The translations under genes and the position numbers were made by a program. The notes beneath the pieces are model-generated. The model had not been told where the DNA came from, did no database searches, and saw nothing but the letters and a program-made list of their open reading frames with translations. DNA of 64,000 nucleotides from Candidatus Uhrbacteria bacterium (GTDB lineage: Bacteria; Patescibacteriota; Patescibacteriia; UBA9934): NCBI GenBank assembly GCA_943359345.1, contig CALRHE010000002.1:705-64704 (forward strand). Reading direction: 5' to 3'. Positions 6,728 through 51,482 of the stretch are shown here, one piece after another; position 1 is the stretch's first letter; every line of letters begins with the position of its first letter.

Positions 6728-6813
6728 GGGTCGATACCGAAGCGGTCAAACGGGGCAGACTGTAAATCTGCTGGCGCAAGCCTACGAAGGTTCGAACCCT
6801 TCTCGACCCACCA
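6728..6813 (+). tRNA. tRNA-Tyr (anticodon GTA), long variable arm
   Basis: GGGTCGA/TCGACCC acceptor; D-arm CCG-AAGCGGTCAAA-CGG; anticodon arm GCAGACTGTAAATCTGC as in E. coli tyrT; T-arm GAAGGTTCGAACCCTTC; CCA encoded. Confidence 0.85.
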
Positions 6814-6967
6814 TGTAGAAAACCCATATAACATCATAACTCCCCAGGTTCATTTAAATCATTCAGCTCCTAGAAGCGAACGAGTAAGGCCGCGGCGTAG
6901 GTAAATCCTACGGTAAGGCCGACGGAGTAAGCGACAACGGAGATGAATGATTTAAATGAACCGATTC

Positions 6968-7043
6968 GCCGCAGTAGCTCAGTTGGTAGAGCGCATCCAT
7001 GGTAAGGATGAGGTCATCGGTTCAAACCCGATCTGTGGCTCCA
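6968..7043 (+). tRNA. tRNA-Thr (anticodon GGT)
   Basis: GCCGCAG/CTGTGGC acceptor with one G-U pair; anticodon arm CATCC-ATGGTAA-GGATG; T-arm GGTTCAAACCC; CCA encoded. Confidence 0.85.
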
Positions 7044-16324: not shown

Positions 16325-16340
16325 AGAGTGATACGGATTA

Positions 16341-16452
16341 GTCATTACAAAATTAGATATTAGCAGCAATTAGAGAATAGAAATTAGACTGAAACGGAGC
16401 GGTTCTAAGTACTCTTTTCTATTCTCTGCTAATTCCTAATTTTGTAATGACT
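16341..16452. repeat. long imperfect palindrome (about 40-bp arms, 33-bp centre) filling the mreB-GT4 intergenic region
   Basis: Left arm GTCATTACAAAATTAGATATTAGCAGCAATTAGAGAATAGAAA versus the reverse complement of the right arm GTCATTACAAAATTAGGAATTAGCAGAGAATAGAAA; the inner 12 bp AGAGAATAGAAA/TTTCTATTCTCT is perfect. Confidence 0.5.
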
Positions 16453-16456
16453 ACTC

Positions 16457-17467
16457 CTAATTACTAAACAAACTCCGCTTGTAGGCTTCAAGATTCTCAA
16501 GCGCGAGCCCAGTACCGCGGGCTACGCATAACTGCGGGTCTTCGGCCATGTAGGTTGGCACGCTGGTAGCTTCGGCTATCAAACGATCAAAATTTCGCAA
16601 CTGACTCGAACCGCCAGAGATCACAATGCCTTTGTCCATGACGTCAGCTGAAAGTTCTGGTGGCGTTTGATTCAAAACATCCTTGAGCGCCGCCAGTATA
16701 CCCTCAAGCAGAGGCTGGATAGCCTCAGTTACGTCATCGCTCGTGACCTCGATGATTTTGGGGAGACCCGTGATCATGTCGCGACCCTTAACGTCCATCC
16801 TGAGCTTGTCAGTGAGGTACATAGCTGAACCGCACTTGATCTTAATGTCTTCAGCTGTACGTTCTCCGATGGCCAAATTATACGTACGGCGTATAAACTC
16901 CATAATCGCATGATCCATTTTGACGCCACCAATCCGAACCGAGGTCGAGGCCACAATGCCACCAAGCGAAATGACCGCCATCTCGCTTGTGCCACCACCA
17001 ATCTCTACGATCATATGACCGTTCGGACTACCAATCGGAATATTGGCACCTATGGCCGCCACGATCGGTTGCTTAATAATATAAGCAGCCTTAGCACCAG
17101 CTGAGAGAGCAGCGTCGATTACAGCCCGTCGTTCAGTTGAGGTAATCCCGCCCGGTACTGCAATCATGACTTCTGGTCGAAAAATACGTACGCCTCCCAA
17201 AGCTTTATTAATAAAATAACGCAGCATCGCCTCTGTGGTTCGGTAGTCAGCAATAACCCCATCCTTCAAAGGTCGGCGCGCCACGATGGTGTCCGGCGTA
17301 CGCCCAAGCATGTCCTTGGCCTCTTTGCCAACAGCTAAAACAGTCTTATCCAATTTAGATATAGCCACCACCGACGGCTCATTAATAATAATGCCCCGCT
17401 TTGGGACATACACCAAGACTGTAGTGGTACCTAGATCGATACCGATTTTTTTGCTGAACATAAGCAA
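16457..17467 (-). CDS. mreB: rod-shape determining actin homolog MreB
   Basis: ...IGIDLGTTTVLVYV...EPSVVAI... and actin-fold blocks throughout. Confidence 0.9.
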   Translation of the reverse strand: MLMFSKKIGIDLGTTTVLVYVPKRGIIINEPSVVAISKLDKTVLAVGKEAKDMLGRTPDTIVARRPLKDGVIADYRTTEAMLRYFINKALGGVRIFRPEVMIAVPGGITSTERRAVIDAALSAGAKAAYIIKQPIVAAIGANIPIGSPNGHMIVEIGGGTSEMAVISLGGIVASTSVRIGGVKMDHAIMEFIRRTYNLAIGERTAEDIKIKCGSAMYLTDKLRMDVKGRDMITGLPKIIEVTSDDVTEAIQPLLEGILAALKDVLNQTPPELSADVMDKGIVISGGSSQLRNFDRLIAEATSVPTYMAEDPQLCVARGTGLALENLEAYKRSLFSN

Positions 17468-24118: not shown

Positions 24119-26302
24119 ATGAGCCAGTATCTTGTTATTAAATCTGCGGACCTGGTTATTGACCCTCCCCAGGGCGAACTTGCTGTCCGCAGCGTCCTCC
24201 ATACTCTTCCGCAGGGCAAGGGCTGGGTTTTTGGGTTATTTACCCTAGAACACAAAGATGATATCGCCCGTGAACGAGTGGCCCATATCCTACTTAGCCA
24301 TCTAGAGCATTTGGCTGCTGACCTGACTGAAGAGACCAACGTGGTACGCCGTTTTGAACAAGCCTTGAGCCGAGTCAACCGCGATCTTGCACGAGCGAAT
24401 AAGGACCTGTCTTTGAACATCGACAAATTCCAGGCTGTGATAGGTGTGCTGTCTGGCGGACAGATATTCATGTCCGGCATTGGCCGCTTAAAAGCCTTAT
24501 TCCTCCACAAAACTGCTGAGCGCCGTTACGTTATTTACGAACTCGATGCTCAGTTTCATGATGGCCAGACTAAAACCTGGGATAAGCCCCTGGTAGCAGT
24601 CTTAGATGGCGAACTGAATCCTGGGGACATTTTCTACCTGGCAACCCCTGTCTCGCACCAAATGTTGGGCATGAACGAACTTCAGGACATTCTTGTCACT
24701 CTCCCTCCGGCTGGCGCCTTACAGCGCATACGCCAGTACTTACCCACGACTGAGCATTATGGCGGCTTGGCTTTCCATGCCCTAGCAGAGGACTTGACGG
24801 GTGTGACTCGCAGAGCCAACCCCATCATTTCGCTTCAAGAACTCGAAAATACCAAACAGCAAACCGCCAACGTGCTTGGTGATCAACAACCTGACCTAGT
24901 CAACACCGTCAAAGAAGTAGCCACGGGCATTAGCAAGAAGCTGTCTAGCCCAGGAATTAGGGGTGCGCAAGCCACCTTGAAGCGTGTCTTGGTGCTCGTC
25001 GTCAAAGGGCTGTCTCGTTTGGCAGCACTGCTAGCAACTCTGAGCGTGAAGTTTGCTGCCTGGCTCAAACGGCGGGTGGCGGATTCGCGCACCAACCGAG
25101 CTATGCGTCACGGTCTGGGCCGTACCAGAAAAATTGGCACACCTGGATTTGTGGATGCCACTCGAGCCTTGTTCTTGGAGCTGTCTACACCGCGCAAATT
25201 TATCTTACTTGGCTTCATGCTCGTCATGGTCATCCTCGGAGGCACAATCTTTATTAATGGTGGCGAGTCTGAAAAAAATAAATCTGAAGCCGCCTTTACT
25301 AACTCAGTCAATTCAATCCAAGATAAAATCCTGGCAGCTGAGGCCAGCTTGATCTATAGGAATAACGCTGAGGCTGTGCGCGCGCTCGAGGGGGCCGCCG
25401 CTACGCTTGAAGCCCTACCCCGTGATACCAATGATCGTCTTAACGAGGCTAATCGCTTAGCTGAAGAACTCACGGTACTACAGGCCAAAATTCGGGGTGT
25501 CACCATGGTTGAACCCGGTCTGTTAGCTGATCTACGTACGCTTGACTCTAGTGCAACACTGGTATCAGCTACCGGCACCATTAATGGGCTCATAGCTCTA
25601 GGTGATAATCTTGGCGTATATAAACTTGATCCGGCCGCCAGAGTTTGGGCTAAGCAAGAAACTATTAACGGGCCAATTTCTCGGATTGAATCGAGCACCA
25701 CTCTAGGGGCCGATGTCATCATTCTCGACGCCACCCAACAACTTGGTCGTATCGATCTCACTGCCCTCACCATGAACCCAATTGCAAGTGGCGCTAACAA
25801 CATGGCCAGCGTTGAGGACATTACTGTCTACAATGATTCGCTCTATGCTCTAACCAGCGTCAGCCAACAGGTAGTCAAGATGCGGCCACAAACGCCAAAC
25901 TTTGAAGCCGGTACAGCCTGGATTAGTGCGCACACAACTGATCTCACCACAGCCCGTGCACTCGCCATCGATTCTGACGTGTACATCCTGCTAGCCAACG
26001 ACATCATTAAATTCACCAGTGGTCGTGAACAAGACTGGCAAACCGCCACCATTGACCCTCCGCTGTCACAACCCGCCGACCTGTGGACAGCCCTTGAATC
26101 CGCCTACCTCTACGTGCTTGACCCAGCTGAAAAGCGTATTCTCGTGATTATCAAAGACACCGGCGCCATCCAAGCCCAGTATGTGTCAGATGACTTTGCC
26201 AGTGCTGTCGGGTTCGTCGTTGAAGAAGCTACCAGCAAAATCACCGTGATTACATCAACTCAGGCCCTTGAATTTACTCCTCAACACCTAATTGTCAATT
26301 AA
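24119..26302 (+). CDS. large membrane protein (cytoplasmic N-domain, one TM, extracytoplasmic C-domain), function unknown
   Basis: 727 aa; TM helix FILLGFMLVMVILGGTIFI near residue 355; the stop codon TAA lies inside the TTAA flank of the repeat element at 26299. Confidence 0.5.
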   Translation: MSQYLVIKSADLVIDPPQGELAVRSVLHTLPQGKGWVFGLFTLEHKDDIARERVAHILLSHLEHLAADLTEETNVVRRFEQALSRVNRDLARANKDLSLNIDKFQAVIGVLSGGQIFMSGIGRLKALFLHKTAERRYVIYELDAQFHDGQTKTWDKPLVAVLDGELNPGDIFYLATPVSHQMLGMNELQDILVTLPPAGALQRIRQYLPTTEHYGGLAFHALAEDLTGVTRRANPIISLQELENTKQQTANVLGDQQPDLVNTVKEVATGISKKLSSPGIRGAQATLKRVLVLVVKGLSRLAALLATLSVKFAAWLKRRVADSRTNRAMRHGLGRTRKIGTPGFVDATRALFLELSTPRKFILLGFMLVMVILGGTIFINGGESEKNKSEAAFTNSVNSIQDKILAAEASLIYRNNAEAVRALEGAAATLEALPRDTNDRLNEANRLAEELTVLQAKIRGVTMVEPGLLADLRTLDSSATLVSATGTINGLIALGDNLGVYKLDPAARVWAKQETINGPISRIESSTTLGADVIILDATQQLGRIDLTALTMNPIASGANNMASVEDITVYNDSLYALTSVSQQVVKMRPQTPNFEAGTAWISAHTTDLTTARALAIDSDVYILLANDIIKFTSGREQDWQTATIDPPLSQPADLWTALESAYLYVLDPAEKRILVIIKDTGAIQAQYVSDDFASAVGFVVEEATSKITVITSTQALEFTPQHLIVN

Positions 26303-26424
26303 CACAGATGATGAATCGATCAGTACAGATCTCACACAGATTGTGAAACTGAAAAGCGAGCTGGTTGGGCTCGCTTTTCACAGCTGTGTTAAATCTGTAA
26401 TTTGCGACTCTCTATCTGTGTTAA
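26299..26424. mobile_element. miniature inverted-repeat element, copy A (118-bp core flanked by TTAA)
   Basis: Terminal inverted repeats CACAGATGATG... and ...CTCTATCTGTG (consensus TTAACACAGATAG) plus sub-terminal ACAGATYTnACRCAG repeats; same length and end sequences as copy B at 50767. Confidence 0.5.
26351..26379. terminator. bidirectional terminator hairpin inside element A
   Basis: gAAAAGCGAGCtggttggGCTCGCTTTTc, a perfect 10-bp stem flanked by A and T runs, between a convergent gene pair. Confidence 0.6.
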
Positions 26425-26425
26425 T

Positions 26426-26827
26426 TTACTTGAGAGTCACTTTAGCACCAGCGGCTTCGAGCTTGGCCTTCATGTCGTCGGCTTCGGCCTGAGTGGCGTT
26501 TTCTTTAACGGCCTTAGGCGCGGCATCAACGATGTCCTTGGCTTCCTTCAGACCCAAACCAGTCAATTCACGCACAGCCTTGATCACGTTGATCTTGCTG
26601 TCACCGGCTGAAGTGAGCTCAACGGTAAATGAACTCTTCTCTTCAGCAGCGGCAGCGCCAGCAGCGGCTGGAGCAGCCATCATCATGGCTGGAGCAGCAG
26701 CTGAAACACCGAACTTGTCTTCCAGAACCTTTACCAATTCGGCTAGATCAAGTACCGACATCTTCTCAACGCTCTCAACGAGAGACTTAAACTTCTCTGG
26801 AACCTCTACGGATTTCATGTCAGACAT
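26426..26827 (-). CDS. rplL: 50S ribosomal protein L7/L12
   Basis: ...[23 protein letters not shown]...Ala-rich hinge...[18 protein letters not shown]... Confidence 0.9.
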
Positions 26828-49278: not shown

Positions 49279-50673
49279 ATGAACAGCAATCGCCTGCTGC
49301 CGCTCATCGGCATGCTTGCCACCCTCAACCTGTCCGCCTGCGCCATCGAGCGTGGAGCGGAAAAGCCCGCCAACACGCCCTCGCCGGCTCCGGCCTTCGA
49401 GGACACCGTTCCGAGCTTCGGCGAGGCGCCCCCGGCGCCTCCAGCCGACGACACCGAACCCGTCGATCTGGACGGTGACGACGACGGCTTCAACGCCGAC
49501 GTCGACTGCGACGACGCCGACCCGGGCATCAACCCCGGTGCATCCGACGACACCTGCAACGGCGTCGATGAGAACTGCGATGGCGCCGATCTGAACGTCA
49601 GCTTGCGCATGCTCGGCAACGAGTGTGGCAGCGTCGACGCGGACAGCGACAACTACATGGATTTCGGCTTCGACGAAGACGGAGTCCCGTACGTGGTCGA
49701 CTGCGACGACGCCAACCCGCTCGTCAACCCCGGCATGACCGAGGTGACGTACGACGGGCTCGACCAGGACTGCGATGCCACCACCCTGGACGACGATCTC
49801 GACCAGGACAGCTTCCTCCTGATCGATGATTGCAACGACGCCGACCCGGACATCAACCCGGACGCAGTCGAGATCTGCGGCAACGACGTCGATGAGGATT
49901 GCGATGATTCGGCGCCAGCGCTCGGTGCGATCTTCCCGGATGCCGACGGTGACGGGTACGGAGACATGAACTCCGGCGACATCGACACTTTCGTGTGCGA
50001 GGACGCTGTCCCCGAGGGCTTCGTCTTCGGTGATCGCCTGGACTGCGATGACCTCGATCCCGCCATCCACCCGGACGCGCCCGTCATCTACTATGACGCT
50101 GTCGACGACAACTGCGACGGCATCGTGGAAGACGACCAGGACTGCGACGGCTACCTGCTCGCGGTCGACTGCGATGACCTCGATCCCGCCATCCACGAAG
50201 ACTGCGAGGTCGTCGTGGAAGACCCGCCGGAAGAGCCGGTGGTCGAAGATCCGGTTGTGGCCTTCTGCGACGTGGGCTTCAGCATCGTGAGCGGCGTGTT
50301 CATCGCTCCGGCAGGGTCGACCTTCGTGTCGATCTACGGACGCCGCACCGGCTCCGACATGTCATTCAGCGATGACGTGTCGTGGACGGACGAGATCAGC
50401 GATCCCACCGACATGACCGTCGTCTACCTGGGCAACACCGTCGCGTTCCTGCTCGACACCTGCGTCGAAGATGCGGATGCCGAGTGGGTCGTCAACGGCG
50501 TCTACACGGATGCCGACGGCGACAGCCACTGGATCTGCGAAGGCGGGGCTCTCACCACCGTCTTCCAGGAAGCCTGGTACGACCTCGGCGCGGACGACGC
50601 CTTCGACCTGCCCGTCACCGCCGACGTGTGGGACCCCGCCGGCTTCGGCTGCGACGCCACCTGGTCCATGTGA
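49279..50673 (+). CDS. lipoprotein with tandem MopE-like Cys/Asp-rich putative metal-binding repeats; compositionally foreign (GC-rich)
   Basis: GGGAG RBS then ATG. Lipobox LNLSAC. At least five CDDxDPxINP...C-containing repeats. Codons are almost all G/C-ending (gac, tgc, ggc, gtc), which opens ORFs in all six frames. The stop is TGA. Confidence 0.6.
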   Translation: MNSNRLLPLIGMLATLNLSACAIERGAEKPANTPSPAPAFEDTVPSFGEAPPAPPADDTEPVDLDGDDDGFNADVDCDDADPGINPGASDDTCNGVDENCDGADLNVSLRMLGNECGSVDADSDNYMDFGFDEDGVPYVVDCDDANPLVNPGMTEVTYDGLDQDCDATTLDDDLDQDSFLLIDDCNDADPDINPDAVEICGNDVDEDCDDSAPALGAIFPDADGDGYGDMNSGDIDTFVCEDAVPEGFVFGDRLDCDDLDPAIHPDAPVIYYDAVDDNCDGIVEDDQDCDGYLLAVDCDDLDPAIHEDCEVVVEDPPEEPVVEDPVVAFCDVGFSIVSGVFIAPAGSTFVSIYGRRTGSDMSFSDDVSWTDEISDPTDMTVVYLGNTVAFLLDTCVEDADAEWVVNGVYTDADGDSHWICEGGALTTVFQEAWYDLGADDAFDLPVTADVWDPAGFGCDATWSM

Positions 50674-50766
50674 CCACTCAGGCCGCCTACTTGTTCGTGT
50701 GCACTCTGTGCGCACGGGCAGGTATGGCGGCCTTTTGAATTACCGCACTTTGTCTTCACCGTTTAT

Positions 50767-50892
50767 TTACACAGATAGTTAAAGCCTTAACAGATTTTAC
50801 ACAAGTACAAAATACGAGTCCTGATAGAGACCCGTATTTCGTTGTCCGTATCTGCGTAAAATCTGTAATCGCCTAATCACTATCTGTGTTAA
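50767..50892. mobile_element. miniature inverted-repeat element, copy B (118-bp core, TTTA/TTAA flanks)
   Basis: TIRs TTTACACAGATAG... and ...CTATCTGTGTTAA; an internal inverted ACAGATTTTAC repeat; the right TTAA contains the tsf stop codon. Confidence 0.5.
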
Positions 50893-51482
50893 TTCCCCAA
50901 AGTCAAACGCACAAAACGACCGATGCGAATATTTTCTCCAATAGCAGCAACTTTCTGTTCGAGTAAGTTAGCAATCGTGATGGCGTCATCTTTTACAAAC
51001 TTCTGATCCATGAGCACGATGTCTTCATAAAACTTGTTGAGCTTGCCGTCCAGGATTTTTTCAATGACTTCGGCTGGTTTACCCTCAGCTTTTAGCTGCT
51101 CGACATGAAAAGCTTTCTCTTTCTGAACTACTTCATCGGGAACATCAGCTCGAGAGGTGTATTGCGGGGCGGCGGCTGCGATGTGCAACGCTAGGTCCTG
51201 GCAGAAGTTTATGAAGTCTTGGTTACGAGCTACAAAGTCGGTCTCACACATAATCTCCACCATCACGGCCACCTTGCCGTTTGAATGAGTATAAGTGTGA
51301 ACCCGTCCTTCAGCGGTAGCGCGGTCAGCCTTTTTAGCCATTTTGAGAGCGCCACTCTTACGCAACCATTCAAGCGCTGCCTCCATGTTTCCGTTAGTTT
51401 CAGTGAGAGCCTTCTTGGCATCCATCATGCCGGCACCCGTCATTTCACGTAGCTTGGCAACGTCGCCTGCGGTTATTGTCAT
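50889..51482 (-). CDS. tsf: elongation factor Ts (short form)
   Basis: ...ITAGDVAKLREMTGAGMMDAKKALTETNGNMEAALEWLRKSG... UBA-like N-domain and a core domain. Confidence 0.85.
   Translation of the reverse strand: MTITAGDVAKLREMTGAGMMDAKKALTETNGNMEAALEWLRKSGALKMAKKADRATAEGRVHTYTHSNGKVAVMVEIMCETDFVARNQDFINFCQDLALHIAAAAPQYTSRADVPDEVVQKEKAFHVEQLKAEGKPAEVIEKILDGKLNKFYEDIVLMDQKFVKDDAITIANLLEQKVAAIGENIRIGRFVRLTLGN

What the first reader, a model, noticed from the sequence alone, without database searches (positions are those of the whole stretch)
26299..26424. MITE-like 118-bp elements with TTAA flanks sit on the stop codons of rplL and tsf (family of two; this is copy A)
Two elements share 13-bp terminal inverted repeats (consensus TTAACACAGATAG). 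Both have sub-terminal ACAGATYTnACRCAG repeats and identical 118-bp core lengths. Both are bounded by TTAA (one flank degenerated to TTTA). Each sits immediately 3' of a highly expressed translation gene: rplL here and tsf at the second copy. In copy A the left TTAA supplies the TAA stop of the 727-aa membrane-protein gene, and the right TTAA lies 1 nt from the rplL stop. The core also contains a perfect 10-bp GC hairpin that would act as a bidirectional terminator. TTAA duplication, TIRs and sub-terminal repeats are what a non-autonomous DNA transposon targeting TTAA would produce. Because TAA stops create TTAA sites, gene ends become targets. No transposase is present in the window.
Basis: seen in the sequence. 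Interest (0 to 1): 0.7.

Follow-up and report, generated by a model that had tools for sequence, protein, structure and literature searches.

The report
Heptamer-armed palindromic terminator elements
The two 126-127-base palindromes after rplL and tsf are real members of a large, apparently undescribed family of dispersed elements, seen in many bacterial phyla and in contigs binned as archaeal, whose arms are three CACAGAT repeats; here they carry the genes' terminator hairpin, and TTAA is part of the repeat rather than an insertion footprint.

Summary
The sequence features are real, with small corrections. Cores are 118 and 119 nt, not identical, and this is not a family of two.

Hits fall in more than ten phyla, and in contigs binned as ANME-1 and Methanosarcinales archaea.

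The unit is an arm of three CACAGAT heptamers. Two inverted arms flank a variable core. In Patescibacteria that core is an A-tract/GC-stem/T-tract hairpin in 15 of 17 copies.

Four relatives lack the arms at the rplL site and three at the tsf site; each has only a plain hairpin. Close relatives carry deletion alleles of copy B that lose heptamers but keep the hairpin, with compensatory changes.

TTAA is not a target-site duplication. It is the spacer after a decayed outer heptamer, and its variants are mirrored, never direct. A Sulfuricella-type branch does show 5-bp duplications, so the wider family transposes.

Patescibacterial copies follow translation or transcription genes at 9 of about 19 sites.

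No transposase, Rfam family or paper was found. Best reading: decaying non-autonomous mobile elements that supply terminators.

The parts
26298..26425 (.). Copy A, the whole element (ATTAA...TTAAT). It lies between the stop of the 727-aa ORF and the stop of rplL.
   Evidence: (inverted repeat I3).
26303..26341 (+). Copy A left arm. Heptamers: H1 CACAGAT 26303-26309, H2 TACAGAT 26324-26330, H3 CACAGAT 26335-26341. Start-to-start spacing is 21 and 11 nt.
26352..26378 (.). Copy A central hairpin AAAAGCGAGC-TGGTTGG-GCTCGCTTTT, a candidate bidirectional intrinsic terminator.
   Evidence: Core folds at -20.7 / -18.3 kcal/mol on the two strands. Whole element folds at -56 kcal/mol, z about -9. The simple terminator scan did not call it.
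26382..26420 (-). Copy A right arm (reverse complement). H3' AGCTGTG 26382-26388 (one mismatch), H2' ATCTGTA 26393-26399, H1' ATCTGTG 26414-26420.
24119..26302 (+). 727-aa ORF whose last codon and stop (AAT TAA) lie in the ATTAA end of copy A. Orthologues in relatives end ...HLIK* or ...HLLK* instead of ...HLIVN*.
26426..26827 (-). rplL (L7/L12). Its TAA stop is immediately followed by ATTAACACAGAT.
   Evidence: (Pfam Ribosomal_L12).
50765..50893 (.). Copy B, the whole element (ATTTA...TTAAT), downstream of tsf.
50770..50806 (+). Copy B far arm. Heptamers: H1 CACAGAT 50770-50776, H2 AACAGAT 50789-50795, H3 CACAAGT 50800-50806 (decayed).
50810..50839 (.). Copy B central hairpin AAATACGAGTC-CTGATAGA-GACCCGTATTT. 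It pairs better in the tsf sense, where a G-U pair replaces an A-C mismatch.
   Evidence: Core folds at -9.4 (+ strand) versus -18.6 kcal/mol (- strand, tsf sense). Compensatory differences among alleles L007, L128 and L132.
50850..50888 (-). Copy B near arm, next to tsf. H3' ATCTGCG 50850-50856, H2' ATCTGTA 50861-50867, H1' ATCTGTG 50882-50888.
50889..51482 (-). tsf (EF-Ts, 197 aa). Its last codon and stop (AAT TAA) overlap the element end. In relatives L132/L133 tsf keeps its own AAC TAA, followed by ATTAACACAGAT.
   Evidence: (Pfam EF_TS).

Best explanation
Copies A and B are two old, diverged members of a Patescibacterial branch of a much wider family of short palindromic interspersed elements.

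Anatomy:
- The conserved unit is an arm of three CACAGAT heptamers in direct orientation.
- Here the spacing is H1-(17-23 nt)-H2-(11 nt)-H3. In other phyla the period is about 10 nt.
- Two arms face each other across a variable core.
- In the Patescibacterial branch the core is an A-tract/GC-stem/T-tract hairpin.

Shown:
- The family is dispersed.
- It is absent from the same sites in relatives.
- It decays by deletion between its own heptamer repeats, while the hairpin is kept.
- It usually sits a few bases after a stop codon.
- In one proteobacterial branch it is flanked by 5-bp target duplications.

Inferred:
- The elements are non-autonomous transposons (MITE-like).
- Their heptamer arrays are binding sites for an unidentified trans-acting transposase.
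- After insertion the arms are dispensable, but the hairpin serves, and is kept, as the transcription terminator of the adjacent genes. For rplL and the 727-aa gene it would act in both directions, and for tsf in one.
- The excess of translation-gene neighbours reflects either preferential insertion at, or preferential retention after, strongly transcribed genes.

TTAA is not a target duplication.
For: Family size and architecture:
- At least 115 genome stretches matched against about 4 expected.
- 76 of 101 paired elements outside Patescibacteria have exactly 3+3 heptamers, although the search pattern specified only one per arm.
- H2-H3 is 11 nt in about 27 of 33 Patescibacterial arms.

Mobility:
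- Arm-less rplL sites occur in four relatives and arm-less tsf sites in three, each with only a plain hairpin.
- Copies lie at unrelated loci.
- Sulfuricella-type copies have 5-bp direct repeats at their ends, 6 perfect and 4 with 4 of 5 matches, out of 10.
- Copies within one genome or lineage share hairpin and spacer types.

Decay of arms, retention of hairpin:
- Alleles of copy B in near-identical flanks are 3+3 heptamers (window), 3+1 (L128) and 1+3 (L132/L133).
- Their stems are ACGGGTC/GACTCGT, ACGGGTC/GACCCGT and ACGGGCCC/GGGCCCGT.

Terminator role:
- 15 of 17 Patescibacterial copies have the A-tract/stem/T-tract core, with different stem sequences.
- Elements lie 0-30 nt after stop codons.
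- In the wider family 79 of 88 elements lie downstream of at least one gene end, and only 1 lies inside an ORF.

Neighbours.
Against: - No transposase or autonomous copy with these ends was found in any of about 250 loci.
- No target duplication can be shown for A, B or most Patescibacterial copies.
- At the rplL site the whole ancestral spacer is replaced rather than interrupted, which a simple insertion does not predict.
- One 'empty' site (L126) has a hairpin of the element type and could be a decayed copy.
- Two deeply diverged genomes (57% protein identity) carry elements after the same cupredoxin-like gene. This fits site preference or long-term selection equally well.
- Single arms abut start codons in L174 and L160.
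- The consensus terminator scan did not call either hairpin. No transcript data exist.
- Homology between the Patescibacterial branch and the branch with target duplications rests on the shared heptamer architecture only.
Confidence: 0.6

Rival explanations
1. A selected cis-regulatory module. The phased heptamers would be binding sites for a host DNA- or RNA-binding protein acting at the 3' ends of translation-machinery genes. It could act as a roadblock or termination helper on DNA, or as a CACAGAU x3 motif in the 3' UTR just upstream of the terminator. Because the arms are inverted, both convergent transcripts carry the same sense motif.
For: - Translation or transcription genes are the neighbours at 9 of about 19 Patescibacterial sites, but neighbours are miscellaneous in other phyla.
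- The 11-nt H2-H3 spacing is strict, and the heptamers are conserved while the spacers diverge.
- The same gene is followed by an element in genomes only 57% identical in that protein.
- Single arms lie directly upstream of start codons.
- A 7-nt repeat plus 4-nt spacer is the layout used by winged-helix response regulators (my own knowledge, not tested).
Against: - Close relatives lose one arm or the other, and heptamers mutate in place (CGCAGAT, ACTTGTG), with no sign of constraint.
- Relatives do without arms at both sites.
- A related branch has target duplications.
- No candidate binding protein is known.
Confidence: 0.2
2. REPIN-like elements moved as single-stranded hairpins by a RAYT-type (IS200-like Y1) transposase.
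For: - Palindromic doublet architecture, intergenic position after gene ends, and very strong predicted hairpin (z -7 to -11).
- A Y1_Tnp fragment exists in one relative (L254).
Against: - The arms are arrays of direct repeats, not individual REP palindromes.
- In A and B the non-heptamer parts of the two arms do not pair well. Symmetry is in the motifs, not in base pairing.
- The 5-bp duplications in the Sulfuricella branch are not made by Y1 transposases (established knowledge).
- The L254 Y1 fragment has no heptamers near it.
- No RAYT is on record (precomputed Pfam) within 10 kb of either copy.
Confidence: 0.05
3. One reading: a TTAA-targeting (piggyBac-style) non-autonomous DNA transposon whose TTAA flanks are target-site duplications, with stop codons acting as targets.
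For: - TTAA or TTTA is present at all four ends.
- tsf in L130 ends AAT TAA without an element, so a possible target exists.
- A possible (untested) link exists between the Sulfuricella branch and IS1380. That family is said to be related to piggyBac (my memory).
Against: - The base outside TTWA is conserved, in 14 of 14 arms and in 13 of 14 left and 13 of 14 right ends of the larger set.
- Variant ends are mirrored, never direct.
- A fourth heptamer lies outside TTAA in several copies.
- The inverted repeat runs through TTAA in all other phyla.
- Where duplications are visible they are 5 bp and lie 22 nt further out.
Confidence: 0.05
4. Conserved orthologous terminator structures with no mobility.
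For: The hairpin is conserved and shows compensatory changes at the tsf site.
Against: - Arms are absent at the same sites in relatives.
- The same arms occur at many unrelated loci and in other phyla.
Confidence: 0.02

Closest known systems
Bacterial MITEs that carry regulatory signals, for example Correia/NEMIS elements of Neisseria (my own knowledge)
   Same: Short (about 100-160 nt), non-coding and inverted-repeat-ended. They are dispersed in intergenic DNA next to gene ends, form long hairpins when transcribed, and can supply terminators or promoters.
   Different: - No sequence relationship was found.
- Correia ends are single 26-bp repeats with a TA duplication.
- Here each arm is three phased 7-nt repeats, no duplication is visible in this branch, and the family spans many phyla.
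REP / BIME / REPIN elements with RAYT transposases
   Same: Palindromic intergenic repeats after gene ends, occurring as singlets and inverted doublets, with proposed terminator or mRNA-stabiliser roles.
   Different: - There is no REP-type palindrome within an arm.
- No conserved GTAG-type head and no RAYT were found.
- A related branch has 5-bp duplications, which Y1 enzymes do not make.
Transposons with sub-terminal short repeats bound by the transposase (Ac/hAT hexamers, CACTA, Tn7, Mu; my own knowledge)
   Same: Several short direct repeats in each end, inverted between the ends. The 5-bp duplication in one branch matches that of Tn7, Mu, Tn3 and IS1380.
   Different: - Binding sites in the bacterial examples are about 20 bp, not 7.
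- Their termini are TG...CA.
- No cognate transposase is known here.
IS1380 family (from memory: ends starting CC, 4-5-bp duplications)
   Same: The Sulfuricella-type copies end in CCTA... and have 5-bp A+T-rich duplications.
   Different: Only a lead. No IS1380 transposase was seen next to heptamer arms, and Patescibacterial copies lack those outer ends.

Membership tests
MITE (non-autonomous DNA transposon) | Short, non-coding, with terminal inverted repeats | tested here: met
   The elements are 126-127 nt, with terminal repeats matching at 11 of 13 (copy A) and 12 of 13 (copy B) positions and 46-nt arms that are 76% complementary. The 66- and 69-aa ORFs that overlap copy A in the mechanical list were not examined.
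MITE (non-autonomous DNA transposon) | Target-site duplication flanking each copy | tested here: not met
   No direct repeat was found at offsets 0-30 in A, B or most Patescibacterial copies. TTAA is part of the repeat. The feature is met only in the Sulfuricella-type branch (5 bp). Old copies could have lost theirs.
MITE (non-autonomous DNA transposon) | Presence/absence at orthologous sites | tested here: met
   Arms are absent in four relatives at rplL and three at tsf. L126 may be a decayed copy.
MITE (non-autonomous DNA transposon) | Many copies per genome | tested here: inconclusive
   There are 2 copies in the 64-kb window and none in the extra flanks. Other carriers have many copies per MAG.
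MITE (non-autonomous DNA transposon) | Autonomous partner with the same ends | tested here: not met
   None was found among about 250 loci. This is not an exhaustive search.
TTAA-specific (piggyBac-like) transposon | TTAA duplicated directly at both ends, outside the inverted repeat | tested here: not met
REPIN / RAYT system | Each half is a REP palindrome, and a RAYT gene is flanked by REPs | tested here: not met
   The arms are direct-repeat arrays. No Y1 gene is on record (precomputed Pfam) within 10 kb of either copy. The L254 Y1 fragment is unlinked.
Intrinsic (Rho-independent) terminator | G+C-rich stem-loop followed by a U-tract, at a gene end | tested here: inconclusive
   Stems of 6-8 G+C-rich pairs are flanked by A4-5/T4-5, 0-50 nt after stop codons. 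The consensus scan did not call them, probably because the A and T tracts pair with each other. No transcript ends are available.
Any Rfam RNA family | Score at or above the family's gathering threshold | tested here: not met
   At the E-value threshold only far sub-threshold hairpin matches appeared.
IS1380-derived MITE | CC... ends, 4-5-bp duplication, IS1380 transposase with the same ends | not tested
   The first two features are seen only in Sulfuricella-type copies. The transposase link was not examined, and the family features are recalled from memory.

The most novel reading that the evidence does not exclude
There exists an undescribed superfamily of palindromic elements, reaching across many phyla and into contigs binned as archaeal. 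It is defined by phased CACAGAT heptamer arrays that are read by one conserved, still unidentified DNA-binding/transposition protein. In Patescibacteria, which have tiny genomes, this element has been turned into a portable terminator cassette that is placed or retained preferentially behind translation-machinery genes.
Probability: 0.3. Interest if true: 0.8.

Novelty: new variant of a known kind. Interest (0 to 1): 0.6.

Why it matters
- If the heptamer arrays are binding sites of one transposase family, this is a widely distributed, apparently uncatalogued mobile-element family. It occurs in cultured organisms (Bacteroides finegoldii, Asticcacaulis taihuensis, Aquiflexum lacus), so its enzyme could be found by pull-down.
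- For Patescibacteria, whose gene regulation is almost unknown, it points to a class of terminators of highly expressed genes that arrived as mobile DNA.
- It also gives a simple sequence marker (three CACAGAT per arm) for annotating these intergenic regions and for tracking strain-level variation.

Tried and rejected
- Rfam at gathering threshold, on the window and on 18 carrier loci: only tRNAs and an SRP RNA. At the E-value threshold nothing meaningful appeared.
- Full-text search for the repeat sequence, for GxxExxY, for MITEs in Patescibacteria and for IS1380 MITEs: nothing relevant. The Prevotella PINSR repeat is a different thing, with no inverted ends.
- Viral contigs: no match to two patterns.
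- Plasmid collection: only unannotated matches.
- All-against-all clustering of ORFs near the elements: only common housekeeping families, plus GxxExxY genes in five Bacteroidota loci. These are absent from all Patescibacterial loci, so they were rejected as a general partner.
- Solitary arrays and the outer Sulfuricella end, used as probes for an autonomous copy: none found.
- Generic search for 5-bp duplications across all branches: clear only in the Sulfuricella type.
- Duplications of 5-9 bp at offsets 0-30 around Patescibacterial copies: only isolated hits (L017 9 bp, L218 7 bp), near the number expected by chance.
- IS200-like fragment in L254: unlinked.
- Rep-origin (iterons plus nick-site hairpin) idea: rejected because the loop sequences are not conserved.
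Full report
**What is at the coordinates**

Copy A occupies window 26299-26424 and copy B 50766-50892.

Each arm has three heptamers:
- The terminal heptamer is CACAGAT, preceded by ATTAA or ATTTA.
- A second (nACAGAT) starts 19-21 nt further in, measured start to start, in the four arms here.
- A third starts exactly 11 nt after the second.

Between the arms lies an A-tract/GC-stem/T-tract hairpin.
- In A it is AAAAGCGAGC-TGGTTGG-GCTCGCTTTT (26352-26378).
- In B it is AAATACGAGTC-CTGATAGA-GACCCGTATTT (50810-50839).

- The 727-aa ORF ends in the left TTAA of A.
- The rplL stop lies one base beyond the right TTAA of A.
- The tsf stop lies in the right TTAA of B.

Two corrections apply. Core lengths are 118 and 119 nt, not equal, and the '10-bp GC hairpin' is six G+C-rich pairs plus four A-T pairs.

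An arm HMM finds only these four arms in the window and none in neighbouring DNA of the same genome. Pfam hits on record name the flanking genes L7/L12 and EF-Ts, and the contig matches a Patescibacteria-type MAG.

**It is not a family of two**

I scanned one genome per species for TTAACACAGAT-N90-120-ATCTGTGTWAA.
By my arithmetic about 4 are expected by chance.
- Hits come from Bacteroidota, Planctomycetota, Verrucomicrobiota, Acidobacteriota, Armatimonadota, Chloroflexota, several Proteobacteria, Desulfosporosinus and Patescibacteria.
- Hits also come from contigs binned as ANME-1 and Methanosarcinales archaea.
- Several are cultured strains, and many MAGs carry numerous copies.

Outside Patescibacteria the match is the middle of a very regular element: three CACAGAT heptamers at a period of about 10 nt, a core with a median of about 93 nt, then three ATCTGTG.
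- 76 of 101 such pairs have exactly 3+3 heptamers, although the pattern asked for one per arm.
- These elements are intergenic. 1 of 88 lies inside an ORF, 79 of 88 lie downstream of at least one gene end, and the distance is typically 10-40 nt.
- No Rfam family matches them or the window copies.
- No paper in the library contains the sequence.
- They are absent from 2.9 million viral contigs.

**The Patescibacterial branch**

The genome scan and a metagenome scan with an arm pattern gave about 17 distinct copies with the window's own layout.
- Fifteen of 17 have the A-tract/stem/T-tract core. The stems differ in sequence (GCGAGC, ACGAGCC, GACGAGC, GCGCGGG and others) but always pair.
- Variants exist: two arms without a hairpin, one arm plus a hairpin, and single arms ending directly at a start codon.
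- Copies from one genome or lineage share spacer and hairpin types.
- Some arms keep a fourth, outer heptamer 10 nt outside H1 (nACAGAT-TRA-CACAGAT).

That fourth heptamer explains the conserved 'ATTAA' end. It is the tail of a decayed heptamer plus the usual TAA spacer.

**TTAA is not a target duplication**

- The base outside TTWA is conserved.
- No direct repeat appears at any offset outside it.
- When both ends carry the TTTA variant they are mirror images (TTTA...TAAA), never direct repeats.
- A wider search of offsets 0-30 gave only isolated hits, close to the chance number.

By contrast, ten Sulfuricella-type copies have real ends 22 nt outside the heptamers (CCTATAAAAAGCAG...). These are flanked by 5-bp direct repeats: six perfect (ATTAT three times, ATCAC, ATAAT, TTCAC) and four matching at 4 of 5 positions. 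So the wider family does transpose by a mechanism that duplicates 5 bp. Whether the Patescibacterial copies moved the same way cannot be shown. They are old enough (A and B are about 70% alike) for any duplication to have decayed.

**Orthologous sites in relatives: rplL**

- Relatives with 95%, 95%, 93% and 89% identical L7/L12 (L125, L254, L126, L127) have only a plain hairpin of 47-77 nt after rplL.
- L125 and L126 keep the same convergent 727-aa gene, which there ends ...HLLK* or ...HLIK* instead of ...HLIVN*.
- The L126 hairpin is of the element type, so that site may be a decayed copy rather than an empty one.

**Orthologous sites in relatives: tsf**

- L131 (94%), L129 (92%) and L130 (82%) have only plain hairpins. 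L130 ends AAT TAA with no element.
- Within the window's own clade, in nearly identical flanks, three alleles of copy B exist.
  - The window has 3+3 heptamers.
  - L128 has lost 56 nt, leaving one heptamer in the far arm.
  - L132/L133 have lost the outer two heptamers of the near arm.
- In L132/L133 tsf keeps its own stop, AAC TAA, followed at once by ATTAACACAGAT. This is the same junction as at rplL (AAG TAA ATTAACACAGAT).
- The window's tsf end (GGG AAT TAA CACAGAT) therefore looks like a 5-nt loss that fused tsf to the element.
- Heptamers also mutate in place (CGCAGAT, ACTTGTG). The hairpin stays paired through compensatory changes (ACGGGTC/GACTCGT, ACGGGTC/GACCCGT, ACGGGCCC/GGGCCCGT).
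- So the arms are dispensable after arrival and the hairpin is not.

**Neighbours**

- The genes whose 3' ends face Patescibacterial copies are rplL, tsf, efp, rpmA, rplA, rplU, rpmF, argS and rpoC, at 9 of about 19 distinct sites.
- rpoC was recognised by its sequence only. The stretches submitted to Pfam, its last 154 and 132 residues, gave no hit.
- Such genes are, by my rough estimate, about a tenth of a genome of this size.
- In other phyla the neighbours are miscellaneous. Only the 25 commonest of 96 Pfam families were visible, so this is a weak negative.
- Two genomes whose cupredoxin-like proteins are 57% identical both have an element right after that gene, but of different subgroups. 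This means either repeated insertion at the same kind of site or long retention.

**Mechanism**

The best-supported reading is a non-autonomous mobile element. Its phased heptamers would be the binding sites of an unknown transposase, and it brings its own hairpin. Once inserted just beyond a stop codon, the hairpin would work as the terminator and be maintained, while the arms erode by deletion between their own direct repeats.

- Shown: dispersal, absence in relatives, erosion of arms, conservation of the hairpin, position after stop codons, and duplications in one branch.
- Inferred: transposase binding, terminator activity (the simple scan did not call the hairpins), and the reason for the translation-gene bias.

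The main rival is a selected protein-binding module at the 3' ends of translation genes. It explains the bias, the strict 11-nt spacing and the arms at start codons. It fits poorly with the free loss of arms in close relatives.

REPIN/RAYT, TTAA-transposon and static-terminator readings fail specific tests (see the membership table).

**Partner search**

- Clustering of all ORFs near the elements gave only housekeeping families and, in five Bacteroidota loci, small GxxExxY genes lying between heptamer arrays. These are absent from all Patescibacterial loci.
- No autonomous copy was found.
- The CC... ends and 5-bp A+T-rich duplications of the Sulfuricella branch recall the IS1380 family. That is a memory-based lead and was not tested.

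**Verdict**

The MITE-like interpretation is right in outline and wrong on TTAA. The elements belong to a large, phylogenetically very broad and apparently uncatalogued family with an unusual heptamer-array architecture. I rate it a new variant of a known kind, of moderate to high interest.

Noticed in passing
window 16327-16465: A+T-rich palindrome with 62-nt arms (79% complementary, 15 nt apart) between two minus-strand genes. Its sequence is unrelated to the heptamer elements, so it is possibly a second kind of intergenic palindromic element or terminator.
   Followed up: partly
window 6847-6962: 24-nt inverted repeat (96% complementary) enclosing 68 nt, lying between two tRNA genes (6728-6810 and 6968-7040). 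No Rfam match.
   Followed up: partly
window 49477-50196: Direct repeats of 57-121 nt inside the 500-aa MopE-like ORF. They encode repeated Cys/Asp-rich modules.
   Followed up: no
L029 1030-1449; L040 5654-6028; L075 1569-1940; L116 2191-2571: Small GxxExxY (TIGR04256) genes in Bacteroidota sit directly between CACAGAT heptamer arrays. They may be linked to the elements in that phylum. None occurs in Patescibacterial loci.
   Followed up: partly
L041, L046, L049, L057, L059, L086, L106, L107, L110, L022: Sulfuricella-type copies are classical MITEs. Their ends (CCTATAAAAAGCAG...) lie 22 nt outside the heptamers, with 5-bp A+T-rich target duplications.
   Followed up: yes
L033, L042, L082, L108 (Acetobacteraceae MAG): Copies are flanked on both sides by inverted tandem arrays of the octamer GCAAGGAA, and by further conserved sequence. 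The element there is larger than the heptamer core.
   Followed up: no
L019 4001-4492 (Wujia chipingensis): 22 forward heptamers in about 370 nt, produced by block duplications, followed by 6 reverse ones. The arrays can expand.
   Followed up: no
L174 1474-1525; L160 11231-11285: Single Patescibacterial arms end 0-5 nt before an ATG start codon (a DUF3179 gene and a bactofilin gene). This leaves no room for a ribosome-binding site.
   Followed up: partly
L054 983-1102 and L248 5379-5503: Elements of two different subgroups lie right after orthologous cupredoxin-like genes (57% protein identity) in two distant Patescibacteria.
   Followed up: partly
L254 9167-9493: Truncated IS200-like Y1_Tnp ORF in a relative of the window genome. 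No heptamers are nearby.
   Followed up: yes
L126 10403-10449: The 'empty' rplL site has a hairpin AAAAACGAGCTC..GAGCTCGTTTTT of the same type as element cores, and a CACATCT 8 nt upstream. It may be a fully eroded copy.
   Followed up: partly
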